Shown piece after piece: positions 20,467 through 47,758 of a stretch of DNA of 64,000 nucleotides. The number at the start of each line of letters is the position of its first letter. Position 1 is the first letter of the stretch. Location: positions 9,362 through 73,361 of the forward strand of contig JAMLJH010000001.1 of the NCBI GenBank assembly GCA_023953615.1, read 5' to 3'. The stretch is from Verrucomicrobiia bacterium (GTDB lineage Bacteria > Verrucomicrobiota > Verrucomicrobiia > Limisphaerales > JADLHS01). The notes beneath the pieces were generated by a model, which was not told where the DNA came from, made no database searches, and saw nothing but the letters and a program-made list of their open reading frames with translations. Position numbers and translations under genes: made by a program.

Positions 20467-20516
20467 CTAGCCGCGCACACACGCGCAACACCATTCCCGC
20501 ATCGGAAATTCGTCTG

Positions 20517-21608
20517 CTACCGCTGGATTCGCGCCGTGCCGCCGCGCGCAAACGCTTTGACCTGTTCGAGCGTGGCCATGGTGGTGTCGCCCGGAAAAGT
20601 AGTAAGCAACGCGCCGTGCGCCCAACCGAGGTTCACCGCTTCCTGCTCCGTCGCGCCACTCAGCAAACCATAAAAGAATCCCGCCGCGTAGCCGTCGCCA
20701 CCGCCCACGCGATCCCAAACGTCCAACTCGCAAACCGGAGATTGATACGTCTGACCGTTGACCCAGGCCACCGTAGCCCACGAATGGCGATTGGTGGAAT
20801 GAACCTCGCGCAAGGTGGTGCCGACAATTTTGATGTTCGGAAATTTCTTAACCGCCCGTTCGATGGTCGCGTAAAAGGCGCTGGGGTCCAGCTTGGCCTT
20901 CTGCTCCACGTCCTGGCCCGCGATATCGAGGCCCTTTTGCAAATCCTCCTCGTTGCCCACCAGCACATCCACATGCTCCACAATGCGACCCAGCACATTA
21001 ACCGCTTGCGCCTGCCCGCCCCAGATGTCCCAAAGTTTCTGCCGATAATTCAGATCGAACGAGGTAACCGCCCCGGCAGCCTTGGCGGCCCGCATCGCTT
21101 CAATGATGACTTCCCCGGTCGTTTCCGAAAGCGCGGCAAAAATTCCACCGGAATGAAACCACCGGACCCCGGTGGCAAAGATTTTTGACCAATCAAAATC
21201 GCCTGGCTTAAGTCGGCCCGCGGCTTCGTTCGAGCGATTGTAAAAGACCACCGGCGCGCGCACCCCATGACCGCGATCAGAATACACGGTGGCCATGTTC
21301 GGTCCACGCACTCCGTCATGTTGGAAAATTTGATAGAACGGTTTCACGCCCATCGCCCGGATGCGTTCGGCAATGAGGTCGCCGATCGGATAATTCACCA
21401 TTGCCGTGGCGATTCCAGTGTTAAGCCGGAAGCAATCCGCCAGGTTGGCAGCGACGTTGAATTCGCCGCCGCTGACGTGAATATCGCAGTGCGTCGCCTT
21501 ACGGAACGGAACAATACCCGGATCCAGCCGATGCACGAGGGCACCGAGAGAAAGAAAATCCAGCGCGCCAGTTGGGGAAATTTTCAAGCCATGATTCATA
21601 GCAGTCAT
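20517..21608 (-). CDS. PfkB-family sugar kinase (2-dehydro-3-deoxygluconokinase-like)
   Basis: Motifs GGEFNVAANLA, DLNYRQKLW and GGGDGYAAGFFYG. The likely start is an internal Met near 21608 (track start 21818 adds an Arg-rich junk-like leader). Confidence 0.75.
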   Translation of the reverse strand: MTAMNHGLKISPTGALDFLSLGALVHRLDPGIVPFRKATHCDIHVSGGEFNVAANLADCFRLNTGIATAMVNYPIGDLIAERIRAMGVKPFYQIFQHDGVRGPNMATVYSDRGHGVRAPVVFYNRSNEAAGRLKPGDFDWSKIFATGVRWFHSGGIFAALSETTGEVIIEAMRAAKAAGAVTSFDLNYRQKLWDIWGGQAQAVNVLGRIVEHVDVLVGNEEDLQKGLDIAGQDVEQKAKLDPSAFYATIERAVKKFPNIKIVGTTLREVHSTNRHSWATVAWVNGQTYQSPVCELDVWDRVGGGDGYAAGFFYGLLSGATEQEAVNLGWAHGALLTTFPGDTTMATLEQVKAFARGGTARIQR

Positions 21609-21808
21609 CTTTAATCGCGAAGCCATCATGCGAAATTTTCGCCGCACTTCAATCTTCTTCAACCAGGAAGCCAGAAATGGGGTCATCTCTCGAAGACAGC
21701 AGCATTCGCCGTCAACCGGCATGGTGCGGACTCGGACTCTGGTACGTTTTCTCCTTTTTCTCGTTTTGAAGTGGCGAAACCCATCCGGACGCCGCACAAT
21801 GTTTCCGC

Positions 21809-22225
21809 ATGAGTTCACAGAACCAAACCGCGAACCCGCCGATGATCAAGCCGCGGCGAATCTTGGTAGTGGATGATGAACCATTCGTGTGCGATGCCAT
21901 CCGGATGATGCTCGCCTTTGACGGGCATCAAGTGAAAACCGCCGGGAACGCCAAGGAGGCGCTGCAAATGTTTGCGCCCGGCGAGTATGATCTCGTCATG
22001 ACCGACTACGCCATGCCCGAGATGAAAGGAGATGAACTCGCCGACGCCATCAAGGCGCTCGCGCCCCAACAACCGATCATTTTGATCACGGCGTATGCGG
22101 AAATGCTCCGCTTCGATGACGCGCCGTTGCGCAGTGTGGATTTCATCATCAGCAAACCGTTTTTGCTGGAGACGCTGCGCACGGCCATTCAGAAAACCAC
22201 CGGCGAACCGGCCGCCCCGGTTTAA
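21809..22225 (+). CDS. single-domain response regulator (CheY-like receiver)
   Basis: Motifs RILVVDDEP, DLVMTDYAMPEMKG and ILITAY. Confidence 0.85.
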   Translation: MSSQNQTANPPMIKPRRILVVDDEPFVCDAIRMMLAFDGHQVKTAGNAKEALQMFAPGEYDLVMTDYAMPEMKGDELADAIKALAPQQPIILITAYAEMLRFDDAPLRSVDFIISKPFLLETLRTAIQKTTGEPAAPV

Positions 22226-22680
22226 CCCGCAATTTTCTCGATGAAGATTCGGCGTCCATTGCCGAATCATTGCGTGAAACCGGGCCGATGGCGGAGTCGA
22301 ACCCCATCCGCTTCAGCACGTAAGATCACGACGACTACCCTCGGGATGACCAACCGCGTTCCGGGATTCCAGCAATGAGCGGTGGCCAAACAGAGACTCG
22401 ATCGCTGAACGTGGGAGAGCGATTGGTATGAATCCATTCAAGTCCGGGGTTGGGAATCCCGGGACGTCTGTGGACGTCCATTTTCAAGACTGCTGGGAAA
22501 AACCTGCCAAGCTTCGGATATGAAAGATGTCAGCAAAAGAAGGCAAGGCGTTGAAAAACCGACCTCAACGGTGATTATTTTTGAGAGAAACTCATTGATT
22601 GAAAAATGTTCGATTGGAAAAAGTTTTGCGACAGCAGCAATACTGGTGCAGCACTTGCTTGAGTTGAACCATACTTTGTC

Positions 22681-25257
22681 ATGAACTGGAAAGCTAAACT
22701 CGCCGCCTACCTGCACGATCCGCCGCACAAGCCAGTTGGCATCCAACACCATGAGCAGGAACGCGGCTCGTTTCTAAACCGTTTTGGTTTATCCTCCGAG
22801 GACATGGCCGCGTTCGAAAAATCTGCTGATTGGCAGGCTGCGGCTGCGGATCGTCTCATCTTTCCCGATCCGGCCAAGTCCAAATTACGGGTGGATTGGA
22901 AAGGAAGTTGGATGGAGTTCTGTCACCCGCTGGGAGGCGGCCGTCTCAGGGCGGGCGCATTTCCTCCCACGGCCGCACAACTGGAAATCGAAATCACCCG
23001 CGCTGTGGAAGCCGTGGCGCTCCGAGATGCCCAAGACTGGTCGGCCAAATTCATTGCTGGATGGCGGCTATGGCCGGAACTGGCTGCCCGCGAGCAAAAT
23101 CCTCACCACGCCTATCTCGTCGCCGACACGCGCATTCCCGACCACACGCTCTGGCACCATAATGCGCTGGCGGCGACCTTCACGGGGTGCAACGGGAAAC
23201 CCGCCTTTCTGTTGTTTCAGATTGGCCCGGTACAGGATTTCATTGCGCAAGCTCGGAAGACCCAGGATCTCTGGTCCGGCAGTTACTTGCTCAGCTTACT
23301 CATTGCTCAAGCCATGCTCGCGGTGGCTGATCAAATCGGGCCGGACGCCATCATTTTTCCACAACTGCGCGGCCTGCCCTTGGCGGATTTCCATTGGTGG
23401 AAGCGTGGCTACCTCGGAGATTTGAAATTTCGAGCCAGCCACCCCAACGAACTACTCACACCTAATTTACCCAACCGCTTCCTCGCACTGGTGCCGACCG
23501 ATCAAGGAACGGAACTGGCGCAAACCGCCGCCGCTGCAGTCCACCAGACCTGGAACGACATCGCCGCCAAGGTCAAAACCTTCCTGGATAAGCAACTCAA
23601 CGGTCAATGCCCTGATTGGGACCAACATTGGACCGCCCAGATCGCCCGTTTTCCCGCAGTGGATTGGGTGGTTCATCCGTGGAGCAAAACGTCGGAAGCC
23701 CTGCAATCCGCCGCTAACGGCACGCCTCCCTTACCTGGCGGTTGGCAGAAACATGCCTTGCGACAGGCTCAACGTTGGGCCGAGGAGTTTATTCCCACCA
23801 ACGAACGGGAAGCCTACGGGCCATGTTCCAACGCTGGTTTTGCTTGGGCATTACACTTCGCCACCACGGATTGGAAACTTGCCGCCGCCAAGAACGCCCG
23901 CGGTTTTGCAGCATGGCAATCAGTCGGTCGGCTCAATGCCGATGGCGTCCCCAAAGATCACTTGGATGGGCGCAATGAAGTGCTGGGCGGCCCGGACCAC
24001 GAACGATTTTGGCAAGTATTACGCGAGCGATGCCCGAAACAATTCAAGGGTTCGCAACTCTATGGCGCCTTGTCCGTGATCAAACGACTTTGGCCGGAGG
24101 TGTATTTGCCAGACACGTTAGACTTGGATTGTAAGGATCATGGTCATCCGGTGTTTCAGCCGGTCGATGCAATTGCTCAAATTGACGATGCGATTAGTAA
24201 CGACCAAGAAGGTGCGGAAACCTACTATGCCGTGCTCTGTATGGACGGTGATGATATGGGGCAGTGGATCAGTGGCAGCAAAGCCGCGCCGCTGCTGAAC
24301 AGCCTCGCTCAAGAAGCTCAAGACTATTTCCGCCGGCATTGGCAGACCGGAGAAGGTGGCCTCGCGGCGGATCAGGTTCAACGCCCGTTGTCGCCGGGTT
24401 ACCATGTCGCGATTTCGGAAGCCCTTTCCAATTTCAGTCTCTACTGTGCGGGACCCATCGTGCGGGCTTTTGGAGGGCAGCTGATTTACGCGGGCGGCGA
24501 CGACGTACTGGCCATGCTGCCGGCGCGCAACGCCTTGGATTGCGCGCAGGCACTACAACTGACTTTCCGAGGCGTCAACCCAGATCACCCAGATGCTCAC
24601 GCTTCGGAGGAGGTGAAAGCTGTTCTTGGTGGACTGTTCGACTTCCCCGCTCCCGGCTTCATTACCTGTAAGCGTGACGCGGGCTACAAGACACGCCTAA
24701 AACCCAACTGGCCCTTGCTGGTCATGGGACCGAAAGCCACAGCCTCGGTCGGCATCGCCATCGGCCATGTCCGCTCACCGATGCAGGACACCATTCAAGC
24801 GGCGCGCGAAGCCGAGCGGCTGGCCAAGGAAGTCCCGAACAAAGGCGCTTTTGCGCTGCAAGTTCTCAAGCGCTCGGGCGAAGCCGTTGGTTTTACGGCC
24901 CGTTGGTCATCCGGAGTGGTGTCGGTCTGGAGCGAATTGGAAGCTGGGATTCATGATTTGAGCGGACGGTTTGCCTACCGCTACGCCAGCTTGGTCAAGG
25001 CCCTCGTTGTCACTGGCGGCGGACCGGATGGCGCCGGCTACGCCTCCGAATGGACTGAAACGCTCCGTGAAGTCATCGAAGCCGAATTACGCCACGTGTT
25101 GATACAACAAGGCGACTTCAAAGCGGATAAGGCGCGCGAGCAAGCACAACACTGGTGTGCAATTCTCACGGAAGCTCTCAATCCACGCGACTACCTCCAT
25201 TTCTGGATGACTTGGGCCTTTATCAACCGCCTGACCAAACCCTCAACCGATGATTAG
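22681..25257 (+). CDS. cas10: type III-B Cas10/Cmr2 large subunit, cyclase (Palm) motif intact
   Basis: N-terminal AAYLHDPPHKP (Cmr2-type), first palm VLCMDGDDMGQWISG, and GGDD in IYAGGDDVLAMLPA (about 24.49 kb). Length is 858 aa. Confidence 0.9.
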   Translation: MNWKAKLAAYLHDPPHKPVGIQHHEQERGSFLNRFGLSSEDMAAFEKSADWQAAAADRLIFPDPAKSKLRVDWKGSWMEFCHPLGGGRLRAGAFPPTAAQLEIEITRAVEAVALRDAQDWSAKFIAGWRLWPELAAREQNPHHAYLVADTRIPDHTLWHHNALAATFTGCNGKPAFLLFQIGPVQDFIAQARKTQDLWSGSYLLSLLIAQAMLAVADQIGPDAIIFPQLRGLPLADFHWWKRGYLGDLKFRASHPNELLTPNLPNRFLALVPTDQGTELAQTAAAAVHQTWNDIAAKVKTFLDKQLNGQCPDWDQHWTAQIARFPAVDWVVHPWSKTSEALQSAANGTPPLPGGWQKHALRQAQRWAEEFIPTNEREAYGPCSNAGFAWALHFATTDWKLAAAKNARGFAAWQSVGRLNADGVPKDHLDGRNEVLGGPDHERFWQVLRERCPKQFKGSQLYGALSVIKRLWPEVYLPDTLDLDCKDHGHPVFQPVDAIAQIDDAISNDQEGAETYYAVLCMDGDDMGQWISGSKAAPLLNSLAQEAQDYFRRHWQTGEGGLAADQVQRPLSPGYHVAISEALSNFSLYCAGPIVRAFGGQLIYAGGDDVLAMLPARNALDCAQALQLTFRGVNPDHPDAHASEEVKAVLGGLFDFPAPGFITCKRDAGYKTRLKPNWPLLVMGPKATASVGIAIGHVRSPMQDTIQAAREAERLAKEVPNKGAFALQVLKRSGEAVGFTARWSSGVVSVWSELEAGIHDLSGRFAYRYASLVKALVVTGGGPDGAGYASEWTETLREVIEAELRHVLIQQGDFKADKAREQAQHWCAILTEALNPRDYLHFWMTWAFINRLTKPSTDD

Positions 25258-25259
25258 CT

Positions 25260-26399
25260 ATGAACCCACTACTCATTGAACCCACCGACGTTTTGTTTTT
25301 TCGCGATGCCGTGCCGATGTCCGCTGGCCAGGGCAAAGGCGCCGGGTGCCGACTGCCTTTTCCCAGTACGCTGCATGAAGCTTTTCGGGGCAGTCTATTG
25401 CGAACGTCAGGCGAAACCATCCGCAGCAAGCAAATCGAAGGTCGCCCGCGCACGGCGAGCCGCTCCGGCAACTGGCATGTGGACGGTCATGACGGCAGAA
25501 CGTTCATCGCCACCAAAGCCTATCGCTCACTGCGCACCATCGGCCCGTTGCCCTACCAGAACGGACAGTTGCGGCTGCCGGTGCCGAATGATGTTGCGCG
25601 CGCTCCCGATGGTCGCCTGTCCCGATTACAGCTCTGGCGCGATGCGGCCGTTGCCGCCCGGCAAACCGCGCCACGTCCGGCTGAATTTCGCCCGTTCTGT
25701 CTGCCGATGGCGATTACACCACCCGACAAGCATGGCCAGCTTTCCGGCTGGTGGACCACGGCTCAATACCGGGCTTACCTCGATACCGCCCGCGCACCAG
25801 GCGAGCACAAGAATAGCCCCGGCGAATTTTTCCGCCCACTGCCGACTGCAGATCTTTGGGTCGCCGAGTCGCGCGTAGGCGTGCAAATTAATCCCCGCTC
25901 GTCCGCATCCGTCGAGGGGCAGCTTTACGCCAGCAGTTATTTGCGTATGGGACAACGCACCCGCTTGGTGGCTTGGGCGGAAGTCGCTGACCCTCTACAG
26001 GCCCGCAATGGCGAGGCGAAGGCCCGTCAGCACGAGCGCGATCAACTGGCGGGGCTGGATTGGCTTTTGCTCGGCGGCGAATTTCGCCTCGCCCGCCTCT
26101 GGCACCAGACCGAAGACAGGCAGGCAATCCCTGATCCGTTGGGCGAACTTCTCTTACCGCCGGACCCGCCGTCGGGCGATGGCCCTTGTCTGCTCAAATG
26201 GATTCTCGTCACTCCGGCAATTTTTGCGCATGGCAGCCTCCCGGGCTGGTGTTGGAACGCATCCGATGGCCGCCCCCCAGGCGAAGTCCGGTTGGGCGCG
26301 TCCAAACGAAAAGCTGATCACGGACCCCTTCCCACTCGCGGCACCAATGTTGGAGCTGGACATTGTGAACCCGCATTACGAAGCGGACGGCCGCGATAA
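25260..26399 (+). CDS. cmr3: Cmr3 (Cas5-family) subunit, 3' end apparently disrupted
   Basis: N-terminus LIEPTDVLFFRDAVPMSAGQG...PFPSTLHEAFRGSLL, central LLLGGEFRLARL, and ILVTPAIFAHGSLPGW. After about 26280 the frame reads as Arg/Gly-rich junk until the stop. Confidence 0.8.
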   Translation: MNPLLIEPTDVLFFRDAVPMSAGQGKGAGCRLPFPSTLHEAFRGSLLRTSGETIRSKQIEGRPRTASRSGNWHVDGHDGRTFIATKAYRSLRTIGPLPYQNGQLRLPVPNDVARAPDGRLSRLQLWRDAAVAARQTAPRPAEFRPFCLPMAITPPDKHGQLSGWWTTAQYRAYLDTARAPGEHKNSPGEFFRPLPTADLWVAESRVGVQINPRSSASVEGQLYASSYLRMGQRTRLVAWAEVADPLQARNGEAKARQHERDQLAGLDWLLLGGEFRLARLWHQTEDRQAIPDPLGELLLPPDPPSGDGPCLLKWILVTPAIFAHGSLPGWCWNASDGRPPGEVRLGASKRKADHGPLPTRGTNVGAGHCEPALRSGRPR

Positions 26400-26949
26400 G
26401 CGAAATCTCACCCCAAACGCTTTCCTCTGTGTTGAGCCGGGCATCATCTGGCGCTTCGTGTTCTTCGTCCGCGCCGGCGCACCAGATGCCACTAAACTGA
26501 AAGAACAAACGCAAACTTGGATTAAGGATACGCTAACCCAAACCGGTATCGGTGCCAAAACTGCAGCGGGCTATGGTCGCTTTCGTCTCCCTACTAAAGA
26601 CGATCGAACCGCTCAGGAAAAACGTCAGCATGAGGTGGACGCGGCTCAAGTCAAGGCCGCGGAGCAGGCCAAGTTGGAAGCGGAAAAAGCCAAGCTACGC
26701 GATGAGGCTCAAGCAAAAACGAAGCATGACTATCCCAACCCAGCTTCGTTCAAAAATCTGGTGCTTGATAAACTGAACCCCGGTCAGCTCGAGCAACTCC
26801 GCAATCAAATTCCTGCGCTGCAAAAACCGGAAAATGAATCCTGGCGCGAGGAATTGAAGCAACGGCTGGCCTCCCGTGACTACAAAGACATCCGCAAACG
26901 CCTCCGGGGGAAAGACTGGTTCCCCCCGGATTGGTTGCCGCCACAATAA
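26266..26949 (+). CDS. Cmr6-like RAMP C-terminal fragment plus ~120-aa charged helical tail (possible pseudogene remnant or fusion partner of cmr3)
   Basis: Frame +1 relative to cmr3. It contains KLITDPFP, LELDIVNPHY, PNAFLCVEPGIIWRFVFFV and GIGAKTAAGYGRF, matching the C-terminal half of Cmr6 as I recall it. No Cmr6 N-terminal half is present. The start codon is uncertain (ATG 26266 or 26347). Confidence 0.6.
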   Translation: MAAPQAKSGWARPNEKLITDPFPLAAPMLELDIVNPHYEADGRDKRNLTPNAFLCVEPGIIWRFVFFVRAGAPDATKLKEQTQTWIKDTLTQTGIGAKTAAGYGRFRLPTKDDRTAQEKRQHEVDAAQVKAAEQAKLEAEKAKLRDEAQAKTKHDYPNPASFKNLVLDKLNPGQLEQLRNQIPALQKPENESWREELKQRLASRDYKDIRKRLRGKDWFPPDWLPPQ

Positions 26950-26958
26950 CACCGCGCC

Positions 26959-27786
26959 ATGCAACTGAAATTCCAAGAATACAAGTTTACCCTGCTCACC
27001 CCCTGCTTCAGCGGTACGGCGTTGGGCAAGTACGGTGACCATGCCGAAATGCGGATTCCCCCCATCCGCGGACATGTTCGTTTCTGGCATCGGGCATTGT
27101 TCGGCGCGAACGACGCGAACCGTATTTGGGGCAGCGCCAGCGGTAATGAAGGACAAGGCAGCCGGGTGGCGCTCCGCTTTGTCGGTTCGGTGCCCAGCAA
27201 ACACGCCCATCCCAAAGCCACCACGCTGCCGCACAAGGATAATCCGGGCCAGCGTGGGCCGCGCCCCGCTTTGGCGGCCGGCGAATCGTTCACCCTTCAC
27301 CTGCAACGCTTGGTCGGCTGCACCCACGATGACTGGGATCACGCCCGACGCGCCGTCAAACTTTGGTTGCTCCTTGGCGGCCTCGGGCTGCGTGCCAACC
27401 GCGCTGCCGGCAGCGTGTGGCCTTTGCCGTCCGGAGGTTGGGACAAACCGCCAGCGACCCGAGAGGAGCTCAAGCAAACCCTGAGAGATATTGGCTGCCG
27501 CTGGCCCGTCAGTTTGATCGGAGAAAATGCAGAAAAGGACGCAACGGAATTGCGGGAGGTCGCATCAGACACGGTCAACAATGCAGAATACTTTGGTTCT
27601 GCCGGCAGGGATCGTAAACCGTCCCCCACCAAATTCAAAGTGATCCGCCTGGGATCAGCCTGCTGTTTGTTGGCCACCGCTCCGCGCGCTGACAACCACT
27701 CCAGCCCACTCCCCGGTGCCCATGCTCTCTTGAAGGATAAATTCCGCTGGAAAGCGCTCGGCGAATGGCACCCTTTACTCCCATGA
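26959..27786 (+). CDS. cmr1: Cmr1-like RAMP protein
   Basis: YKFTLLTPCFSGTA...MRIPPIRGHVRFWHRALFG and LWLLLGGLGLRANRAAG (G-rich loop). Confidence 0.75.
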   Translation: MQLKFQEYKFTLLTPCFSGTALGKYGDHAEMRIPPIRGHVRFWHRALFGANDANRIWGSASGNEGQGSRVALRFVGSVPSKHAHPKATTLPHKDNPGQRGPRPALAAGESFTLHLQRLVGCTHDDWDHARRAVKLWLLLGGLGLRANRAAGSVWPLPSGGWDKPPATREELKQTLRDIGCRWPVSLIGENAEKDATELREVASDTVNNAEYFGSAGRDRKPSPTKFKVIRLGSACCLLATAPRADNHSSPLPGAHALLKDKFRWKALGEWHPLLP

Positions 27787-27947
27787 AATCTCGTTTGCCT
27801 GATCCCTCGTGGCCGCCGCCATGGGCCCTGACTGGAAAGCCAACCCTCAATGGTCTGCTGCGCATTCAGACACCGACCGACCGGCGCATCTCCAAACGTC
27901 CACTTTATTTTTGACAAAACTCTGATGTTCCAACCTATACCCAAGTT

Positions 27948-29138
27948 ATGAAAACACAGCTCTGCTTGCTCAGTGGCGAATTGATGCCCAACGTTATTGG
28001 CGTGCTGCATTCGGGCGTCCGACAGGTGCTGCCCATTGTCAGCCGTGAATCCGCGGCCCAGGTGGATAGTTTCCGGCAGACACTGGCTGCCACCGGCAAT
28101 CCGGTAACCGTACTCGACCCTGTCACGGTGCTGCCGTTTGATCCTGCGGACTGCCGAAACACTCTCAGTCAAGCCATCGGAAACCATCCAGATTTGGAAA
28201 TCAATTGGACCGGTGGAACCAAGATCATGAGCTACGCCGTCCGCCAGCTGGCGGAAAAACACGGACTTCCCGCCTTGTACGTCAATACCAATGGTCGGGA
28301 AATCCTCCGCGAAAATCCCGCCGACGGCAGCGTACGGTCCGAGATGATTGATACGGCGCGACTGGGGTTAAACGTGTTGACCCATATTCTCGCCGCCGGG
28401 CATACGGTCGAAGGAGGGGAGTCGCTGGAGGCCTTTCGCACCCGCTGTACGCCCGCTCCCGAACTGGTTCAAGCGGCCACCCTCATTCTGGATGCCCGGC
28501 CATCGGAACGTTATGAATTGCGTGAACTGGCAAAAGCTGATCGCGCCGCTTTCCAACCACAACAACTGAACGCCGATTTTCTCAAGGCGCTGACCCAGGC
28601 CGGTCTGATTGAGCCCGCTGCGGATGCGGGAAAATTCTTCCTCGCGCATACCACCAAACTCCATCCGTTCCATCGGCAGAGTCCTGAGGAGCAAAATGCT
28701 ATTTTCCTGCGCAGCACTTATCTTGAAGTTTTCTTGTGGTCGCAGATTAAGGAGCGCAGCGCGATCGAAGACGTCGCCTGGCATGTCGCGCTCAATCCCG
28801 GCGTTCGGGGCCGTGCTGCTGAACTGGACGTTGCCCTGGCTCACGAAGGGCGTTTCGTGGTGTTGGAATGCAAACAACACTTGGACCTGAAAGAGCTGGC
28901 GAAGGTGATTGAAGAGCAGGCGGCTCGGACCCGTCGCATCGGGCGATTATTTGGACGCTGGATGCTCTATATTCATCATTCGCGGGCGGAATACGATGCC
29001 CCCGGATCTGACGCCATTATTGCCAGTCAGGCAGCCAGAGCTGCTGACTACGGCGGCAAACTACTTTGGCACGACGATCTAAAAGATCTGCCGGTCACGG
29101 TCGCCTCTTTTCTTAACGAAGGTCGGCTCACGCTTTGA
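27948..29138 (+). CDS. can2: Can2/Card1-family effector: N-terminal CARF domain plus C-terminal PD-(D/E)xK nuclease
   Basis: CARF hallmarks LSGELMPNV and INWTGGTKIMS. The nuclease motif is ELDVALAHEGRFVVLECK (D..E.K). Confidence 0.75.
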   Translation: MKTQLCLLSGELMPNVIGVLHSGVRQVLPIVSRESAAQVDSFRQTLAATGNPVTVLDPVTVLPFDPADCRNTLSQAIGNHPDLEINWTGGTKIMSYAVRQLAEKHGLPALYVNTNGREILRENPADGSVRSEMIDTARLGLNVLTHILAAGHTVEGGESLEAFRTRCTPAPELVQAATLILDARPSERYELRELAKADRAAFQPQQLNADFLKALTQAGLIEPAADAGKFFLAHTTKLHPFHRQSPEEQNAIFLRSTYLEVFLWSQIKERSAIEDVAWHVALNPGVRGRAAELDVALAHEGRFVVLECKQHLDLKELAKVIEEQAARTRRIGRLFGRWMLYIHHSRAEYDAPGSDAIIASQAARAADYGGKLLWHDDLKDLPVTVASFLNEGRLTL

Positions 29139-29150
29139 TATGGGAAAATC

Positions 29151-29393
29151 ATGACCCTCGACGTTTCCACTCTCTACGTCGCCACCGGCACCGCCAAATT
29201 GGCCGATCTGCCCGCTTACGAAGCCCGTGTGCGTGAACTCGTTCCCCCCGGTGCGGACGTAACTCTCACCGGCCCGGGACCGGTCTGGCTTTACCTCCGT
29301 CTCGCCCACCGGCTGCATGGTCGCGTCCGCATCCTGACCTACACCAGTCCCGTTAGCGGCCCCGTCGAGATTTTCAACCATAACCCCGGTTGA
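29151..29393 (+). CDS. csx3: Csx3-like protein (Crn3-type cA4 ring nuclease candidate)
   Basis: 80 aa. LTGPGPVWLYLRLAHRLHGRVRILTYTSPVSGPVEIFNHNP fits my remembered Csx3 pattern G-x-G-P-x-W-L...H..H...P..G.V.....H. Confidence 0.6.
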   Translation: MTLDVSTLYVATGTAKLADLPAYEARVRELVPPGADVTLTGPGPVWLYLRLAHRLHGRVRILTYTSPVSGPVEIFNHNPG

Positions 29394-29396
29394 ATC

Positions 29397-30641
29397 ATGA
29401 AGACCGAACGCAAACCCCGTGCCCGCGCGAAGTCCAATCTGGCCGGCAAACCTCCGGCCCGGTCACTTCCCGCCGACACCAGAAAGCCTGACGTGAAATC
29501 ACGAGCGGTGTTGCTCGCGGTCATGGGCACCTCCCCGGCCATTCTCACCGAAACGGTCTGGGCCTTGGCCCAAGGCGATGACCGGCACCCGCCCGTCATT
29601 CCCGACGAAGTCGTCGCCATCACCACCTGCCAGGGACGGGACAAAATCAACGCGCAATTGCTCGCGTCGCCGCCGGACGGGAGCGGGCAAAGCATCTGGC
29701 AATCCCTCCGGCGGACGCTATTGGGCGCCGACGCGGTGGCGGAACCCCGGCTCACACTCCGGATCGAGGTCATCGCGCGCCCGGCCCCGCTGACCGGACA
29801 GCTCACGCTCCTGACGGATATTCTGACCCTCGAAGACAACCTGGCGGCGGCCGAATTCATTTTCCAACACGTCCGCGCCCATGTCAGTGCCGACGATACC
29901 CGACTCATCGCCTCGCTGGCAGGCGGGCGCAAAACCATGAGTTCCCTGCTCCACGCCACCTTCAGCCATCTGGCCCGACCGCAAGACCGCTTGACGCACA
30001 TTTTGGTGAACGAACCGTTTGATGGCGCCGTCCAGCCGCTATTTTTTTATCCCGGCCAACCCCAGCAGAAACTGACGGATCGAGGTGGAAAAGTGTGGAC
30101 TGCTCGGGACGCGCGGCTGCTGCTGGCCGACGTACCCTTTGCGCCCATGCGCCTGCGGTTTCCTGACATTGAGAAAATCCCCATGCGTTTCCACACGCTG
30201 CTGAAAACCTACTCGGAAACCTGGCAGCGCGACGCCACCGAACCCGCGCGCATCGAGCTGCACCACACGCCCCCACGCGTGGTGGTGGATGGTCTCAGCG
30301 TGGAACTCGAAAGCGAACGCCAACTCACCGTCATCCAGTTTCTGCTGCGGGCCAACCGAGAGAGATGGGTGCAAAAGAACCAGGACGAAGCGCTGGCTAT
30401 CTTCAAGGCCACGCATGGGTACCCACCGGAATCGGGCAACGTACCCCCGGCGTTAAAGGCCACCCTTGAGAAACTCTCCGCCGCAGGTCAAAAAAAGCCG
30501 GGTCCCGAATGGATCAAAAACGCAACCACGGACGACATCAAACGTCCATTGAGCTACTGGCGGCGCCTTCTCGAGAAAAAGGGCAGCCGCTGGGTGCCTC
30601 CCAAGCGTGACTTGCGCTTTCCTCCCTTCGAATTGGTGTAG
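29397..30641 (+). CDS. NE0113/TIGR02584-like CARF (CARF7-type) protein with ~185-aa C-terminal extension
   Basis: LLAVMGTSPAILTETVWAL, VVAITT and SLAGGRKTMS motifs. The C-terminus carries PRVVVDGLSVELESERQLTVIQFLLRAN (winged-helix-like pattern). Confidence 0.65.
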   Translation: MKTERKPRARAKSNLAGKPPARSLPADTRKPDVKSRAVLLAVMGTSPAILTETVWALAQGDDRHPPVIPDEVVAITTCQGRDKINAQLLASPPDGSGQSIWQSLRRTLLGADAVAEPRLTLRIEVIARPAPLTGQLTLLTDILTLEDNLAAAEFIFQHVRAHVSADDTRLIASLAGGRKTMSSLLHATFSHLARPQDRLTHILVNEPFDGAVQPLFFYPGQPQQKLTDRGGKVWTARDARLLLADVPFAPMRLRFPDIEKIPMRFHTLLKTYSETWQRDATEPARIELHHTPPRVVVDGLSVELESERQLTVIQFLLRANRERWVQKNQDEALAIFKATHGYPPESGNVPPALKATLEKLSAAGQKKPGPEWIKNATTDDIKRPLSYWRRLLEKKGSRWVPPKRDLRFPPFELV

Positions 30642-30715
30642 GTCCGCGAGCCACCGTCACTACGACGTCCCCGGACGTCCACCAGCGCGACAACTTTATC
30701 CCGGTCGTTTACTCT

Positions 30716-30934
30716 ATGCACATGAAAAAAATAGCTTTAAGCTCATTTTCGAACAACTGGCCGAACCGTATTGAAATCGTCCTGCGCATCAGCGTGCTGG
30801 TTCTTTTGATCACCATGCTGATCAAACTGATGCTTCTGCCAAGCCTAACCCTCATAATGAGTCTGGCGGTAATGACCATCCTCGCGTCCGCCGTTTCCGG
30901 CATCTTGCGTGAATTGCGGCGGTGGCGGTCCTGA
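30716..30934 (+). CDS. hypothetical 72-aa protein with two predicted TM helices, in a lower-GC patch
   Basis: Sequence MHMKKIALSS...IEIVLRISVLVLLITMLIKLMLL...LTLIMSLAVMTILASAVSGIL..RELRRWRS. No family was recognised, and it could be non-coding AT-rich DNA. Confidence 0.4.
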   Translation: MHMKKIALSSFSNNWPNRIEIVLRISVLVLLITMLIKLMLLPSLTLIMSLAVMTILASAVSGILRELRRWRS

Positions 30935-30947
30935 ACGGCTCCACCAC

Positions 30948-31994
30948 ATGCCCACGCTCATCCTCAACCAAGCCCGCTGTCGGGTCGCCTTGATTTCCGA
31001 ACGGCTCGAGATTCTCAGTCCGTCGCTGGGAGAGCCGGATGCCGAACCCGAGCGCCGCACCGTGTCGCTCCTGGATGTGGAACGGGTAGTGGCGGGGGAG
31101 AACACGCATTTCACTCCGGCAGCTTGGGCGGAAATGTTGCGACGCCAAATTCCCATTCAGTTGTTCGCCTGGAACGGTCGCTTCCTTGGTGGTTTTCTGC
31201 CTGCCCAAAACCAACACGGTCTCTCCCGTCTGCGACAGTACCAACGCACTACCGATCCCGCCTTTGCCTTGCAAATGGCCGGTCGGATTATCGCCGCCAA
31301 AATTTATAATCAACGCCGCGTGATCCAGCGACTTCGAGCCAATCGCACTTTGACACAATCCACACCGGCCACCCCGGCAAATTCGGACCCCGGTCAGGCG
31401 ACCCTCGCCTGGCTGGACACCAGCCTCGCACAAGCCGCCCGGGCTCGTTCCCTCGGGGAACTGCGCGGTCATGAAGGCGCGGCCACTGCCCGATATTTTC
31501 AAGCTTGGGCGGACTGCCTGCCTGCGGCGTTCCCTTTTGAACAACGCAGCACCCGTCCTCCCTTGAATCCGGTCAACGCCTGCATCTCCTTTGGTGCCAC
31601 CTTGCTTTATCACGAAGCCGTTGCTTTTATCCACGCACACGGGCTGGATCCCGCCCTTGGCCTCCTGCACGCCACCGAAAACGGACGCTGGTCACTCGCC
31701 TTGGACCTCATCGAACCCTTCCGTCCCGTTCTGGTGGAAGCGCTGGCGCTGGATCTGTTCAGCCATCAAATTCTGAACACCTCGCATTTCGATGCCCGCG
31801 ACGGTGGCTGCTACCTCAATGAAGCCGGCCGCAAGAAATTCTTCTTCCAATACGAACGCCGCATGGAACGGCAATTCCTCAGTGAATGCGTTGGCCACCG
31901 CACCACCCTGCGCCAACAACTCGAACATCAAGCCGTACAATTCAAAAGCGCCTTGGATCAACCCGAAAAATTTGAACCCTTCCTCATGAATTGA
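30948..31994 (+). CDS. cas1: CRISPR-associated endonuclease Cas1
   Basis: Motifs LRGHEGAATARYF, NPVNACISFGATLLYHE and GLLHATENGRWSLALDLIEPFRP. The likely start is MPTLILNQ at 30948 (track GTG 30909). Confidence 0.9.
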   Translation: MPTLILNQARCRVALISERLEILSPSLGEPDAEPERRTVSLLDVERVVAGENTHFTPAAWAEMLRRQIPIQLFAWNGRFLGGFLPAQNQHGLSRLRQYQRTTDPAFALQMAGRIIAAKIYNQRRVIQRLRANRTLTQSTPATPANSDPGQATLAWLDTSLAQAARARSLGELRGHEGAATARYFQAWADCLPAAFPFEQRSTRPPLNPVNACISFGATLLYHEAVAFIHAHGLDPALGLLHATENGRWSLALDLIEPFRPVLVEALALDLFSHQILNTSHFDARDGGCYLNEAGRKKFFFQYERRMERQFLSECVGHRTTLRQQLEHQAVQFKSALDQPEKFEPFLMN

Positions 31995-32025
31995 AACTCC
32001 ACCTCCAAACACAGATACCGGCTGC

Positions 32026-34137
32026 TGGTCCAACGCCCTCGATGCCGAAAGGCATTGGAGACATCGCTCTTGGTTATAGGTGCCGAAGCCAGCTTGCGAG
32101 GGGCAGAACGCCCTCGATGCCGAAAGGCATTGGAGACCGAAGATTTGGAAGCGCTTGTCTTTGCGGTTCAGGAAGGGGCAGAACGCCCTCGATGCCGAAA
32201 GGCATTGGAGACAAAGCTTTTGAGGGGTGAACCAAGTCCCGTTGATTACTGGGCAGAACGCCCTCGATGCCGAAAGGCATTGGAGACATTTGGTTAAGGC
32301 ATGGGACATGCTCGAAGAACGCAAGAGGGGCAGAACGCCCTCGATGCCGAAAGGCATTGGAGACTTCTTGAATTCCAACCCCAGGGCGATGCGGTCTAAG
32401 CCCGGGCAGAACGCCCTCGATGCCGAAAGGCATTGGAGACTTGCCTTTGGCGTTTGACGCCATGCGGGTGACAATCCAGGGGCAGAACGCCCTCGATGCC
32501 GAAAGGCATTGGAGACTTAAGATTTTCTCGACAGCCTCACGTAGAGGCTTGGGGGGGCAGAACGCCCTCGATGCCGAAAGGCATTGGAGACTCCCTCCAT
32601 CAGGACTTTATTGACAGCCTCACGTAGAGGGCAGAACGCCCTCGATGCCGAAAGGCATTGGAGACCAGTTCCGCCCGCACCTTGGCTATCGTCTTGTCGT
32701 CCAGGGCAGAACGCCCTCGATGCCGAAAGGCATTGGAGACAGAGACTTGGGCAATTCAACGTTCACCTTGCTAAAGGTGAGGGCAGAACGCCCTCGATGC
32801 CGAAAGGCATTGGAGACTCACCAGATCAAGCGCGTGTTCTTCCATTCGTAAGACGGGCAGAACGCCCTCGATGCCGAAAGGCATTGGAGACGCATTTTGT
32901 CGCGTAGTGCCTCCACATCGCTAGCCGCGTGGGCAGAACGCCCTCGATGCCGAAAGGCATTGGAGACAACCGTGTCCCCCGGGAAAGGAATCTCTTAGCC
33001 GGGCCAGGGGCAGAACGCCCTCGATGCCGAAAGGCATTGGAGACAAGCTCTTGGGTAGTTCAACATTCACCTTGTGAAAGGTTGGGCAGAACGCCCTCGA
33101 TGCCGAAAGGCATTGGAGACGTCTTTTCAATGGCGACCAGGTATTGTTTGCCCGAGATGGGGCAGAACGCCCTCGATGCCGAAAGGCATTGGAGACTTCG
33201 CTTGGTTTGTTTGTTAGTGGCAAGCTGCGAGCGAGGGCAGAACGCCCTCGATGCCGAAAGGCATTGGAGACCCCGCGCCGCTTCAATTTGCTCACGTCAA
33301 TATCACCCGGGGCAGAACGCCCTCGATGCCGAAAGGCATTGGAGACTTGCTCATTTCAGCAGGGCATTGATGCGCCGTAGTTCGGGGCAGAACGCCCTCG
33401 ATGCCGAAAGGCATTGGAGACAAAAGATTTGCGGTTTGCCGTTCACGTCCCGCATATTGCGGGCAGAACGCCCTCGATGCCGAAAGGCATTGGAGACCGC
33501 GCACTCAATTAGCGGGGTCATATTATCCTTTCGTGGGCAGAACGCCCTCGATGCCGAAAGGCATTGGAGACGTTTGAGCGCGACGTTTGAAGCCGTCGTT
33601 ACTCCCCACGGGCAGAACGCCCTCGATGCCGAAAGGCATTGGAGACCAGCGCCGCGTCCGCTTCCATCTGCGCCAAAACGCGCGGGGCAGAACGCCCTCG
33701 ATGCCGAAAGGCATTGGAGACTAAAACGTGCCGCCTCCCCAAGTTTCTTGTAGCCAACACGGGCAGAACGCCCTCGATGCCGAAAGGCATTGGAGACGAA
33801 CCCGTAAGAAACACCATGTTTAATAGACTGTATGCTTCGATGTTCCACGATTGTTTATCTTTTCTGACCAAGGGCAGAACGCCCTCGATGCCGAAAGGCA
33901 TTGGAGACTTCAGTTTCCCGCCGGGTAAGTTTTAGCAATTCGGATTTGGGCAGAACGCCCTCGATGCCGAAAGGCATTGGAGACATGTAGGCTTCGGTGC
34001 TCGCCAGCTTTTCCAAGATTTTGGGCAGAACGCCCTCGATGCCGAAAGGCATTGGAGACGGAAAGGCCCGTGTAGCGTCCCACCAGATCCAGGATCTCCG
34101 GGGCAGAACGCCCTCGATGCCGAAAGGCATTGGAGAC
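32026..34137 (+). CRISPR. CRISPR array with 28 repeats of 37 nt (GGGCAGAACGCCCTCGATGCCGAAAGGCATTGGAGAC) and 27 spacers (26 of 37-41 nt, one of 74 nt)
   Basis: Repeats were located by eye at 32026, 32101, 32176 ... 34101. The first repeat deviates at 4 of its first 6 nt; all others are identical. Plus orientation is inferred from the hairpin TGCC-GAAA-GGCA followed by an 8-nt TTGGAGAC tail. Confidence 0.97.
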
Positions 34138-34164: not shown

Positions 34165-34410
34165 CCGCCTGAAGGCGGGACTACGAACCAAGTTGCCTTC
34201 GCTGCCTGAAGGCGGGACTACGAACCCAACGCATCCCCCCGCCTGAAGGCAGAACTACAAACGAAACACCTCCTCCGCCTAAAGGCGGGACTACGAACCA
34301 AGTTGCCCTCGCTGCCTGAAGGTGGAACTACAAACATTCCTGCTGCTCGTAGTCCTGCCTTTAGGCAGATTGAACTTTCTCTTGTTGTTCGTAGTCCCGG
34401 CTTCAGCCGG
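34165..34410. repeat. cluster of 7 REP-like hairpin units (CYGCCTGAAGGCRGGACTACGAAC): 5 direct with 36-37-nt period, 2 inverted
   Basis: Direct units are at 34165, 34202, 34239, 34275 and 34312. Inverted units are at 34346-34369 and 34387-34410. Each has a CCGCC-TGAA-GGCGG type stem-loop. Confidence 0.85.
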
Positions 34411-34521
34411 AATTACAACCATCCGGCCGGGCGGTTCCGCATTGCTTCCGTTCGCGTGAAATTCCACTATGTTCACGGTGGTAAAAGTGACCAGCGACAA
34501 ACTAAAAATCCGATAAACACC

Positions 34522-35379
34522 ATGAAAATAAAATTGATGACAACAACCCTGGCGGCAGCCATTGGTTTCAGCTTCGCTCCCGCGAGCTTTGCGCAAGCCC
34601 CGAAGGTGGATTTCCCGGCGCCCAGCCCGACGTCCACGCTGAAGCAGCGCGTCGGTCTGACGGACATTGAAATTGTATATTCGCGTCCGGGAGTAAAAGA
34701 TCGCGAAATTTTCGGCGGCCTCGTGCCTTACGGCAAGGTCTGGCGCACGGGCGCGAATAGCGCGACGCGGATTTCATTCAGCACGGATGTCAAATTGAAC
34801 GGACACGATGTGCCTGCGGGAGCGTACGAACTGTTCACCATTCCCGATGAAAATGAATGGACCATCATCATCAACAAGGGCACGGGGCAATGGGGCGCGT
34901 TTCAATATGACGAAAAACAGGATTTCCTGCGCTTCAAAGTCAAGCCACGGCAACGCGCGCGTTCCGTGGAAACATTCACCATCGGCATCAGCAACATCCG
35001 GGACGAATACGCCACCATCAGTCTGGCTTGGGATAAAACCAGCATTCCGATCAAATTCGAAGTGGATTTAACTTCCAAACTCGTTCCACAAATCGAGGCC
35101 GCCATGGCCGCGCCCGATGGCAAGAAACCTTACTTCCAAGCCGCGACGTTTTATTACAATCACGGGCTTGATTCACAAAAAGCCTTGAAGTGGGTTAATG
35201 CTGCCGTCGCCGAAAATGAAGCGCATTACATCGTGCATTTGAAGGCCAAGGTTCTGGCGCGTCTCGGTGACAAAGCGGACGCCATCGCCGCCGCGAAACG
35301 CTCGAAGGAACTGGCCATCGCCGCCAAGGACTTCGGCTTCGTCAAGCTGAACGATGATTTGATCGCCAGCCTGCAGTAA
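34522..35379 (+). CDS. DUF2911 domain protein with signal peptide and C-terminal TPR-like helical region
   Basis: Signal peptide MKIKLMTTTLAAAIGFSFAPASFAQ, plus GKVWRTGANSATRISF..VKLNGHDVPAGAYELFTIP..EWTIIINK. Confidence 0.75.
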   Translation: MKIKLMTTTLAAAIGFSFAPASFAQAPKVDFPAPSPTSTLKQRVGLTDIEIVYSRPGVKDREIFGGLVPYGKVWRTGANSATRISFSTDVKLNGHDVPAGAYELFTIPDENEWTIIINKGTGQWGAFQYDEKQDFLRFKVKPRQRARSVETFTIGISNIRDEYATISLAWDKTSIPIKFEVDLTSKLVPQIEAAMAAPDGKKPYFQAATFYYNHGLDSQKALKWVNAAVAENEAHYIVHLKAKVLARLGDKADAIAAAKRSKELAIAAKDFGFVKLNDDLIASLQ

Positions 35380-35386
35380 ACGCCTC

Positions 35387-37933: not shown

Positions 37934-38082
37934 CCAAGCCGCATCCGCCATCTGAAGCGCCGTCCGAGGAAGCGCCGAACGTTCCCGGTTTCCGCACCTG
38001 GCGCGGCATTTATGTATTCGTGTTGTTTTGGTTCATCGGCTGCGTTGCGCTGTTGGCGTGGCTTTCCCACGCCTTCAAATGA
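37930..38082 (+). CDS. small (50-aa) single-TM protein, translationally coupled upstream of the symporter
   Basis: There are ATGA overlaps at both ends (37930-37933 and 38079-38082). The sequence is MTKPHPPSEAPSEEAPNVPGFRTWRGIYVFVLFWFIGCVALLAWLSHAFK. Confidence 0.5.
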   Translation: MTKPHPPSEAPSEEAPNVPGFRTWRGIYVFVLFWFIGCVALLAWLSHAFK

Positions 38083-41276: not shown

Positions 41277-41277
41277 C

Positions 41278-42426: not shown

Positions 42427-42486
42427 CTCCCGCCAGGTGCGGATTCGCATCAAGACCAGCGGACAACTACGGGTCGCGCAACGCCA

Positions 42487-44091: not shown

Positions 44092-44356
44092 GACTTGCAG
44101 TTAGCCAAGTTCGCCGAAAGATTTCCAGCCCGAACCACCTGAACTGGGCTCCGCCCACCGTAACGCCATCCAGACCTGCAAACTCCAAATTAAAACAACT
44201 TGCCTCCCGATAAGGGCCAAATAAAATGCGGCGGTATCCATACGTGAAAACGTCTGAGCTAATCCAACCATGAAGACCGAATACCGGTTCTTTTTTTCAG
44301 GATAAGTTCAGAATTTATTGCGTGGAAATTCGACGAAATTACAACCTAAAAGTAAA

Positions 44357-47212: not shown

Positions 47213-47235
47213 CAAAACACGCAATTAACGCGCTG

Positions 47236-47265
47236 GCATCCGGAAGTCGGAACACTTCCGGATGC
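47236..47265 (+). terminator. 12-bp perfect hairpin downstream of the LamG gene (no clear U-tract)
   Basis: GCATCCGGAAGT-CGGAAC-ACTTCCGGATGC. Confidence 0.4.
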
Positions 47266-47757: not shown

Positions 47758-47758
47758 C

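What the first reader, a model, noticed from the sequence alone, without database searches (positions are those of the whole stretch)
26230..26400. cmr3 switches frame into the C-terminal half of a Cmr6: deletion scar or Cas5-Cas7 fusion
Good Cmr3 sequence (…LLKWILVTPAIFAHGSLPGW…) runs in one frame to about 26280 and then degenerates into Arg/Gly-rich sequence until a stop at 26399. From about 26290 the +1 frame reads KLITDPFPLAAPMLELDIVNPHYEADGRDKRNLTPNAFLCVEPGIIWRFVFFV...GIGAKTAAGYGRFRL. This matches the C-terminal half of Cmr6 as I remember it (DAfP, D.mnPHy, P.pi.Fl.v..G..F.F, GiGaKT..GYGrf). The Cmr6 N-terminal half, cmr4 and cmr5 would lie between cmr3 and cmr6 in the cas10-cmr3-cmr4-cmr5-cmr6-cmr1 order I recall from Thermus, and they are missing. 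The simplest model is an out-of-frame deletion from the 3' end of cmr3 to the middle of cmr6. A C6 homopolymer (26272-26277) sits at the junction. Removing one C would fuse both parts into a single ~563-aa Cmr3-Cmr6C protein, so a sequencing indel or a real fusion cannot be excluded.
Basis: partly seen in the sequence, partly recalled or inferred. Interest (0 to 1): 0.62.

Follow-up and report, generated by a model that had tools for sequence, protein, structure and literature searches.

The report
Deletion scar in a CRISPR operon
A 2,179-base deletion has removed the core genes of this bacterium's type III-B CRISPR defence, so a shortened cmr3 gene now runs out of frame into the back half of cmr6; this is a broken locus, not a new fusion protein or a sequencing error.

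Summary
Public metagenome contigs carry the intact locus at 100% identity: cas10-cmr3(456 aa)-cmr4(314)-cmr5(121)-cmr6(392)-cmr1. Against it the window lacks exactly 2,179 bp (3n+1). The junction lies in a 5-bp microhomology, TTCCC, at 26329-26333.

The deletion removed cmr3 codons 359-456, all of cmr4 and cmr5, and cmr6 codons 1-186. The junction is 55 nt downstream of the C6 run, and that run is identical in intact cmr3 genes, so it is not an indel. The supposedly degenerate stretch 26280-26333 is genuine Cmr3.

Contigs of four independent runs cross the junction without a difference. The 95%-complete genome has no Cmr4, no Cmr5 and no other RAMP gene, so the Cmr effector is dead.

Two side findings add some interest. 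Another population carries a different, in-frame 1,278-bp cmr3::cmr4 deletion. This genome also lost cas2 plus leader, and 559 codons of a cas9, while about 90 kb of control DNA shows no indel. It carries a 7-kb inovirus-like prophage that one spacer of the dead type II system's array matches at 26 of 30 bases. Overall this is ordinary CRISPR decay, possibly selected.

The parts
22681..25257 (+). cas10/cmr2, intact (858 aa, GGDD present)
   Evidence: TIGR02577 224.8 bits; PF12469 and PF22335. 100% identical to the intact-allele contigs L001 and L004. GGDD read in the translation.
25260..26333 (+). cmr3 remnant, native codons 1-358 of 456
   Evidence: Identical to P0004/L001 Cmr3 residues 1-358. 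PF09700 90 bits, but only profile positions 2-282 of 367.
26272..26277 (+). C6 homopolymer, an ordinary part of cmr3 (codons for RPP) and not the junction
   Evidence: Same six C in the intact cmr3 of L001-L003 and in Logan contigs of 12 or more runs.
26329..26333 (+). Deletion junction: 5-bp microhomology TTCCC shared by cmr3 (L001 8150-8154) and cmr6 (L001 10329-10333)
   Evidence: The blastn blocks window 18180-26333 = L001 1-8154 and window 26329-32046 = L001 10329-16046 overlap by 5 nt.
26334..26399 (+). Aberrant tail of the truncated cmr3 ORF: 21 codons of cmr6 DNA read out of frame (TRGTNVGAGHCEPALRSGRPR) plus a TAA stop
26329..26949 (+). cmr6 remnant, codons 187-392 plus stop, in the +1 frame relative to cmr3, with no start of its own upstream of the junction
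   Evidence: Identical to residues 187-392 of intact Cmr6. TIGR01898 positions 98-194. The first in-frame ATG, at 26347, has no purine-rich stretch before it.
26959..27786 (+). cmr1-like RAMP gene, intact (275 aa)
   Evidence: PF03787 31.7 bits; TIGR01894 23.5 bits, below its cut-off of 28.65. Identical in L001.
27948..30641 (+). cOA-signalling accessory genes, intact: Card1-like CARF nuclease (27948-29138), Csx3-like (29151-29393), NE0113/Csm6-family CARF protein (29397-30641)
   Evidence: PF23400 and PF09002; TIGR02579 (weak); TIGR02584 169 bits.
30909..31994 (+). cas1, intact
   Evidence: TIGR00287 230.9 bits.
32032..32035 (+). Second deletion junction (32034|32035, AAC microhomology). It joins DNA 40 nt past cas1 to the inside of a CRISPR repeat; cas2 and the leader (at least 696 bp) are gone.
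   Evidence: Seen only in this assembly: no indexed run carries the junction.
32026..34137 (+). CRISPR array, 28 repeats of 37 nt (the first is a hybrid) and 27 spacers

Best explanation
The window carries a recently broken type III-B (Cmr) CRISPR-Cas operon. One illegitimate-recombination or replication-slippage event between two TTCCC pentamers, one in cmr3 and one in cmr6, deleted 2,179 bp. That removed the last 98 codons of cmr3, all of cmr4 (the Cas7 backbone and target-RNA-cutting subunit), all of cmr5 (the Cas11 small subunit) and the first 186 codons of cmr6.

Because 2,179 = 3n+1, translation of cmr3 passes the junction into cmr6 DNA in the wrong frame and stops after 21 aberrant codons. 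The remaining 206 cmr6 codons lie in the +1 frame without a start of their own, so they are most likely not translated (inferred).

Without Cmr4, Cmr5 and Cmr6 no crRNA-guided Cmr complex can assemble. Cas10 can then not be activated by target RNA, and the intact downstream cOA effectors (Card1-like, Csx3-like, NE0113/Csm6-like) stay silent. This step is inferred from the established architecture of Cmr complexes. The flanking genes are still 100% identical to intact alleles, so the event is very recent.
For: - Intact allele: Logan contig L001 has cas10-cmr3(456)-cmr4(314, TIGR02580 200 bits)-cmr5(121, PF09701)-cmr6(392, TIGR01898 105 bits)-cmr1.
- Window 18180-26333 and 26329-32034 are 100% identical to L001 1-8154 and 10329-16034. 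The blocks overlap in TTCCC and 2,179 bp are missing.
- Cmr3 residues 1-358 and Cmr6 residues 187-392 are letter-identical to the intact proteins.
- The junction is crossed without a difference by 39-42-kb contigs of four runs, X1-X4, at depth 13-21. The 379-aa product is called on 7 contigs of the SRR320316xx runs. These contigs differ from the window elsewhere (they keep cas2 and an intact cas9), so they come from a separate assembly of a non-identical population, not from the window's own assembly.
- Intact alleles occur in at least 9 other runs from at least 4 studies.
- The genome (95.5% complete) has no Cmr4 or Cmr5 hit, only two RAMP hits (cmr1 and the cmr6 stub), and no copy of the deleted DNA.
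- An 80%-identical orthologous locus keeps the six genes in the same order.
- Loss of type III immunity by deletion is documented experimentally in S. epidermidis (PMC3784566).
Against: - All read evidence is Logan contigs, not raw reads, so a minority intact allele in X1-X4 cannot be excluded.
- About 4.5% of the genome is unassembled, so a cmr4 elsewhere is not strictly excluded.
- Non-translation of the cmr6 stub and silence of Cas10 are inferred, not measured.
Confidence: 0.95

Rival explanations
1. A genuine Cas5-Cas7 (Cmr3-Cmr6C) fusion protein of about 562 aa, hidden by a one-base sequencing error in the C6 homopolymer.
For: Removing one base gives a single open frame that hits both Cmr3 and Cmr6. 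Homopolymers are error-prone in long-read assemblies.
Against: - The C6 run, and every base from it to the stop (26272-26399), is identical to the intact cmr3 (up to 26333) and the intact cmr6 (from 26329) in independent short-contig assemblies.
- The frame offset follows from the deletion length, 3n+1.
- Four runs give the same sequence.
- None of the 120 listed relatives is a Cmr3-Cmr6 fusion; each carries either the Cmr3 or the RAMP (Cmr6) domain. The one 604-aa hit is a Cmr3 with an unrelated tail.
Confidence: 0.01
2. Assembly artefact: the cells carry the intact operon and the assembler skipped 2.2 kb.
For: Two other deletion junctions in this genome (cas2/leader and cas9) are not seen in any indexed run, so this assembly does contain unique junctions.
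Against: - The cmr junction is reproduced in separate contig assemblies of four runs and on 7 contigs, with no branch or loose end at 26329/26333. Runs with mixed alleles do break there.
- Assemblers do not collapse at 5-bp microhomologies.
- The surrounding 14 kb has no indel.
Confidence: 0.03
3. The deletion is real and was also favoured by selection. On this view, loss of the Cmr effector, and later of cas2 and a cas9, relieved a conflict with a resident mobile element or a cost of cOA signalling. This adds a cause to the best explanation and is not exclusive with it.
For: - A second, independent deletion (1,278 bp, in frame, cmr3 codons 1-243 fused to the cmr4 C-terminus) dominates another population, at 12-28x against 3-9x for the intact allele.
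- This genome has three microhomology deletions, all in cas DNA (about 17 kb compared). About 71 kb at four randomly chosen loci plus 20 kb of the window show no indel against other populations.
- The delta-2179 lineage is the one carrying a 7,027-bp inovirus-like prophage; non-lysogens have the empty site.
- Spacer 26 of the array beside the deleted cas9 matches the prophage replication gene at 26 of 30 bases.
Against: - No spacer of the surviving III-B array matches the prophage or the genome.
- The SRR320316xx population keeps an intact cas9 despite the prophage.
- The co-occurrence rests on a single lineage.
- I looked at cas loci on purpose. Discounting the first event, the enrichment is only about P = 0.02.
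- Neutral loss is known to be cheap (PMC3784566).
Confidence: 0.3
4. The remnant is functional: a +1 ribosomal frameshift, or internal initiation at ATG 26347, yields a Cmr3-Cmr6C or Cmr6C protein that works with Cas10 and Cmr1.
For: The open +1 frame runs 206 codons, and an in-frame ATG lies 14 nt after the junction.
Against: - The junction was created by a random recent deletion, so no recoding signal can have evolved.
- There is no Shine-Dalgarno-like sequence before ATG 26347.
- Half a RAMP fold, with no Cmr4 backbone, has no known activity.
Confidence: 0.01

Closest known systems
Intact allele of the same locus (Logan contigs L001-L003, e.g. SRR11577119) and its 80%-identical orthologue in a Verrucomicrobiota MAG (GCA_035411585.1, L016)
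   Same: cas10, cmr3 codons 1-358, cmr6 codons 187-392, cmr1, card1-like, csx3-like, NE0113-like and cas1 are identical (L001) or syntenic (L016). Gene order is cas10-cmr3-cmr4-cmr5-cmr6-cmr1.
   Different: The window lacks 2,179 bp (cmr3 3' end, cmr4, cmr5, cmr6 5' half). It also lacks cas2 and the leader.
Canonical type III-B Cmr complex (Cmr1-6 of Pyrococcus furiosus and Thermus thermophilus; my own knowledge of the literature)
   Same: The same six-gene family set in the intact allele. Cas10 has GGDD, and CARF effectors lie downstream, so the intact system should work as target-RNA-activated cOA signalling plus Cmr4 RNA cleavage.
   Different: In the window the backbone (Cmr4), the small subunit (Cmr5) and half of Cmr6 are absent, so it cannot work like a Cmr complex.
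Spontaneous CRISPR-Cas loss-of-function mutants of the type III-A system of Staphylococcus epidermidis RP62a (Jiang et al. 2013, PMC3784566)
   Same: Immunity is lost by partial deletion of, or frameshift in, the cas/csm operon. Such mutants are frequent and cost little, and they are selected when a targeted element is useful.
   Different: Those mutants arose in laboratory conjugation experiments and many were IS-mediated. Here the alleles are natural, found in wastewater, sludge and soil metagenomes, and have 2-5-bp microhomology junctions.
Natural RAMP fusions such as Cas7-11/gRAMP (type III-E) and fused Cas7 genes of type III-D
   Same: They place several RAMP domains in one polypeptide, which is what the fusion reading proposed.
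   Different: Those fusions are in frame, conserved across many genomes and contain whole RAMP domains. Here the two pieces are out of frame and each is truncated within its conserved region (the Cmr3 and Cmr6 models are only partly covered), and the junction is found only in one lineage.

Membership tests
Type III-B (Cmr) effector module | Cas10/Cmr2 large subunit | tested here: met
   TIGR02577 224.8 bits (cut-off 79.4); PF12469 and PF22335.
Type III-B (Cmr) effector module | Full-length Cmr3 (Cas5) | tested here: not met
   Only codons 1-358 of 456 remain. HMM coverage stops at 282 of 367 (Pfam) and 258 of 346 (TIGR01888); the intact protein reaches 321 of 346.
Type III-B (Cmr) effector module | Cmr4 (Cas7 backbone) | tested here: not met
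   No TIGR02580 hit in the whole genome, although 5 control genomes hit. PF03787 finds only cmr1 and the cmr6 stub.
Type III-B (Cmr) effector module | Cmr5 (Cas11 small subunit) | tested here: not met
   No PF09701 hit in the genome. It is present in the intact allele.
Type III-B (Cmr) effector module | Full-length Cmr6 | tested here: not met
   Only TIGR01898 positions 98-194 of 195 remain, out of frame and without a start.
Type III-B (Cmr) effector module | Cmr1 | tested here: inconclusive
   PF03787 31.7 bits (above 22.1), but TIGR01894 23.5 bits (below 28.65). Its position after cmr6 matches cmr1.
Type III-B (Cmr) effector module | Adjacent CRISPR array | tested here: met
   28 repeats of 37 nt at 32026-34137. 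No cas6 (TIGR01877) in the genome, and none next to the intact alleles either.
   The frames differ by +1, a TAA stop lies at 26397-26399, and the sequence is verified against the intact parents and four runs.
   All 120 listed homologues are separate Cmr3 or Cmr6 proteins.
Microhomology-mediated deletion allele | Both flanks colinear and identical with an intact allele, with a short shared sequence at the junction | tested here: met
   100% identity on both sides and TTCCC present at both parental sites.

The most novel reading that the evidence does not exclude
This cosmopolitan wastewater and sludge Verrucomicrobiota species may be repeatedly disarming its own CRISPR systems in nature.
- Two independent deletions hit cmr3-cmr4 in different populations.
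- The window's lineage carries a 7-kb inovirus-like prophage. It lost the Cmr effector first, then cas2 plus leader, and then 559 codons of the cas9 whose array holds a 26/30 match to the prophage's replication gene.

If selection by conflict with a chronic filamentous phage (or the cost of cOA-triggered effectors) drives this, it would be a natural, time-ordered case of 'CRISPR loss to keep a mobile element', caught at 100% flanking identity.
Probability: 0.25. Interest if true: 0.5.

Novelty: already known. Interest (0 to 1): 0.27.

Why it matters
For annotation, the 379-aa 'Cmr3' and the 313-aa ORF at 26008-26949 should be marked as pseudogene remnants. The locus should not be counted as a functional or 'minimal' type III system, nor as a new Cas5-Cas7 fusion.

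For biology, the value is modest but real. The intact allele, a delta-1278 allele and a delta-2179 allele of one otherwise identical locus coexist in public metagenomes. This one genome carries three separate cas-inactivating deletions. That gives a clean natural example, and a testable one, of how quickly CRISPR-Cas immunity is lost.

Tried and rejected
- Fusion or homopolymer error: rejected by base-for-base identity to the intact parental genes.
- A second cmr4/cmr5/RAMP set elsewhere in the genome: none found, and the deleted DNA is absent.
- Self-targeting by the surviving III-B spacers as the cause: none of the 27 spacers matches the genome or the prophage beyond 14-18 nt chance hits.
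- Arrays with this repeat in the JGI metagenome and GTDB genome collections, to look for anti-prophage spacers: the exact 37-nt repeat was not found.
Fixation of the deletion in X1-X4 therefore rests on unbranched contigs only.
- The three 'mismatches' near 32035-32041 are not SNPs. They mark the true cas2/leader deletion junction, over-extended by blastn through a repeat-like sequence.
- The Cas9 proteins of the two type II loci are too diverged to compare by tblastn. The cas9 truncation was shown through intact alleles instead.

Full report
**What is there.** The window holds a type III-B CRISPR-Cas island:
- cas10/cmr2: 22681-25257
- a Cmr3 ORF: 25260-26399
- a cmr1-like RAMP gene: 26959-27786
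- a Card1-like CARF nuclease: 27948-29138
- a Csx3-like gene: 29151-29393
- an NE0113/Csm6-family CARF gene: 29397-30641
- cas1: 30909-31994
- a 28-repeat array: 32026-34137

The Cmr3 ORF matches only the first three quarters of the Cmr3 models (PF09700 positions 2-282 of 367; TIGR01888 2-258 of 346). The overlapping +1 frame (26008-26949) matches the second half of Cmr6: TIGR01898 positions 98-194 of 195, 57.2 bits, above the curated cut-off, E = 2.4e-15.

**The intact allele.** A homology search with the hypothetical fused protein found no fusion. It found separate Cmr3 proteins (most about 415-500 aa) and separate Cmr6 proteins (about 370-440 aa). Two of them are near-identical to the window:
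- P0004, a 456-aa Cmr3 identical to the window over its first 358 residues.
- P0025, a 392-aa Cmr6 whose residues 187-392 are identical to the window's +1 frame.

The contig that encodes P0004 (L001, Logan assembly of SRR11577119) carries cas10-cmr3(456)-cmr4(314)-cmr5(121)-cmr6(392)-cmr1, then the same accessory genes, cas1 and cas2. The two extra genes score as Cmr4 (TIGR02580, 200 bits) and Cmr5 (PF09701). An orthologous locus at about 80% identity in a Verrucomicrobiota MAG has the same six-gene order.

**The breakpoint.**
- Window 18180-26333 equals L001 1-8154, and window 26329-32034 equals L001 10329-16034, both at 100% identity.
- The two blocks overlap in TTCCC (26329-26333), which is present at both parental sites.
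- The missing piece is 2,179 bp = 3x726+1.
- It comprises cmr3 codons 359-456, all of cmr4 and cmr5, and cmr6 codons 1-186.
- The truncated cmr3 therefore reads 21 codons of cmr6 DNA in the wrong frame and stops at 26397-26399.
- The remaining 206 cmr6 codons sit in the +1 frame without their own start. The first in-frame ATG is at 26347 and has no purine-rich sequence before it.

- The stretch 26280-26333, judged 'degenerate Arg/Gly-rich', is genuine Cmr3: GEVRLGASKRKADHGPLP, also present in the 81%-identical P0005.
- 'KLITDP' in the other frame is not Cmr6. Intact Cmr6 reads ...VIFVGG before FPLAAPM.
- The C6 run (26272-26277) lies 55 nt upstream of the junction and is the same six C in every intact cmr3.

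Because every base from the C6 run to the stop is identical to one or the other intact parent, no sequencing indel is hidden there. The +1 offset is simply the deletion length modulo 3.

**Is the deletion real in cells?**
- Logan contigs of four runs of one study (X1-X4), 39-42 kb long at depth 13-21, cross the junction with no difference, branch or loose end.
- The 379-aa product is called on seven contigs of SRR320316xx runs. One contig length, 39,655, identifies X2 as one of them.
- These contigs are not copies of the window's assembly: they still carry cas2 and an intact cas9, which the window's genome lacks.
- At least nine runs from at least four other studies carry the intact allele. 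Their contigs leave the window at 26333 into GGAAGGGCC... and re-enter at 26329 from ...GTAGGTGGT.
- The genome (4.15 Mb, 2 contigs, 95.5% complete) has no Cmr4 or Cmr5 hit, only two RAMP hits (cmr1 and the cmr6 stub), and no copy of the deleted DNA.

**Mechanism.**
- Shown: a microhomology-flanked deletion removed the Cas7 backbone, the Cas11 subunit, half of Cmr6 and the C-terminal domain of Cmr3.
- Inferred from the established Cmr architecture: no crRNA-bound complex can form, Cas10 (GGDD intact) cannot be switched on by target RNA, and the intact cOA effectors remain idle.
- The complete identity of the flanks to intact alleles shows the event is very recent.
- Loss of type III immunity by deletion or frameshift is a documented, frequent and cheap event (PMC3784566). 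Earlier notes of this scan describe similar scars in other genomes.

The finding itself is therefore ordinary.

**Beyond the finding.**
1. A second, independent allele exists. In sample S7 (X7, X13; contig L004 of SRR12234141) a 1,278-bp in-frame deletion with 2-bp microhomology fuses Cmr3 residues 1-243 to the C-terminus of Cmr4 (P0006). It dominates at 12-28x over an intact minority at 3-9x.
2. In the window, DNA 40 nt after cas1 is joined at 32034|32035 to the inside of a repeat. Intact alleles have cas2 and the leader there, at least 696 bp. That DNA is nowhere in the genome.
3. The genome has two type II loci.
   - One is intact (Cas9 of 1,082 aa).
   - In the other, cas9 has lost codons 48-606 through an in-frame 1,677-bp deletion with 4-bp microhomology, relative to 100%-identical contigs that encode a 1,035-aa Cas9.
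   - No indexed run carries the cas2 or the cas9 junction. Both are so far unique to this assembly and need read-level confirmation.
4. As a control, four randomly chosen housekeeping regions (71 kb) and window 35000-54999 are colinear with contigs of other populations, with no indel and almost no SNP. Deletions are thus enriched in cas DNA, though only modestly significantly once ascertainment is discounted.
5. The delta-2179 lineage (this genome and the SRR320316xx runs) carries a 7,027-bp inovirus-like prophage with a Zot-like ATPase and a G2P-type Rep, between pnp and glgA. Other populations have the empty site.
6. Spacer 26 of the array beside the deleted cas9 matches the prophage rep gene at 26 of 30 bases.
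7. None of the 27 surviving III-B spacers matches the prophage or the genome.

These observations allow a selection scenario, CRISPR disarmament in a lysogen, but do not prove it. I rate that scenario at about 0.25-0.3.

**Verdict.**
- Observation: partly confirmed. The frame switch is real, but the junction and the role of the homopolymer were misplaced.
- Interpretation as a deletion scar: supported.
- Fusion or sequencing error: excluded.
- Novelty: an already known kind of event.
- Interest: low to moderate, raised a little by the natural allele series.

Noticed in passing
window 32026-32062 (junction 32034|32035): A second deletion. cas2 and the CRISPR leader (at least 696 bp in intact alleles) are missing, and the 'degenerate first repeat' is a hybrid of cas1-downstream DNA and a repeat. 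The parental site after cas1 is itself repeat-like (AAC-TCCCTTAATGCC against AAC-GCCCTCGATGCC). No indexed run carries this junction.
   Followed up: partly
own genome C1:936591-936594 (locus L010 about 12591-12594): A third deletion. The cas9 of a second type II locus lost 1,677 bp in frame (codons 48-606, including HNH), with 4-bp microhomology. That leaves a 476-aa ORF next to cas1, cas2 and a 59-repeat array. Intact 1,035-aa alleles at 100% flanking identity occur in many runs, including X1-X4.
   Followed up: yes
own genome C2:1218910-1225936 (locus L032 4910-11936): A 7,027-bp inovirus-like prophage (Zot-like assembly ATPase, G2P-type Rep, lower GC) lies between pnp and glgA, with an overlap of about 18 nt at the attachment site. 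It is present in this genome and in SRR32031694/-97, and absent (empty site) in SRR12908348 and SRR12234145.
   Followed up: partly
own genome C1:931246-931275 against C2:1224625-1224654: Spacer 26 of the type II array beside the truncated cas9 matches the prophage rep gene at 26 of 30 bases (E = 3.7e-6 against the whole genome). PAM and strand were not analysed.
   Followed up: partly
locus L004 8001-9047 (equivalent to a break at window 25989): An independent 1,278-bp in-frame deletion allele, in which Cmr3 residues 1-243 are fused to the Cmr4 C-terminus (348 aa). It is the majority allele in one activated-sludge sample, alongside a minority intact allele.
   Followed up: yes
window 26584-26949: The charged helical tail of about 120 aa after the Cmr6 GYGRF motif is not a product of the deletion. 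It is present in the intact 392-aa Cmr6 and conserved in the 80%-identical orthologue P0042. Its function is unknown.
   Followed up: partly
window 32063-34100: Oddities in the array. Spacer 24 is 74 nt long. Spacers 10 and 14 are 88% alike, so they are variants of one target. Spacers 7 and 8 share 16 nt (GACAGCCTCACGTAGA), which suggests overlapping protospacers. Spacers 1, 5 and 6 also occur, flanked by repeats, in other wastewater runs, and spacer 6 occurs in a sludge metatranscriptome contig.
   Followed up: partly
window 34165-34411: Hairpin repeats (GCCTGAAGGCGGGACTACGAAC-like) with a period of about 37 nt lie directly after the array. In the metagenome contigs they join to several different flanks, so they form a multi-copy dispersed repeat family.
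   Followed up: no
whole genome; loci L001 and L015: No cas6 (TIGR01877) in the genome, and none beside the intact III-B alleles or the 80% orthologue. How this III-B system processes its crRNA is open.
   Followed up: partly
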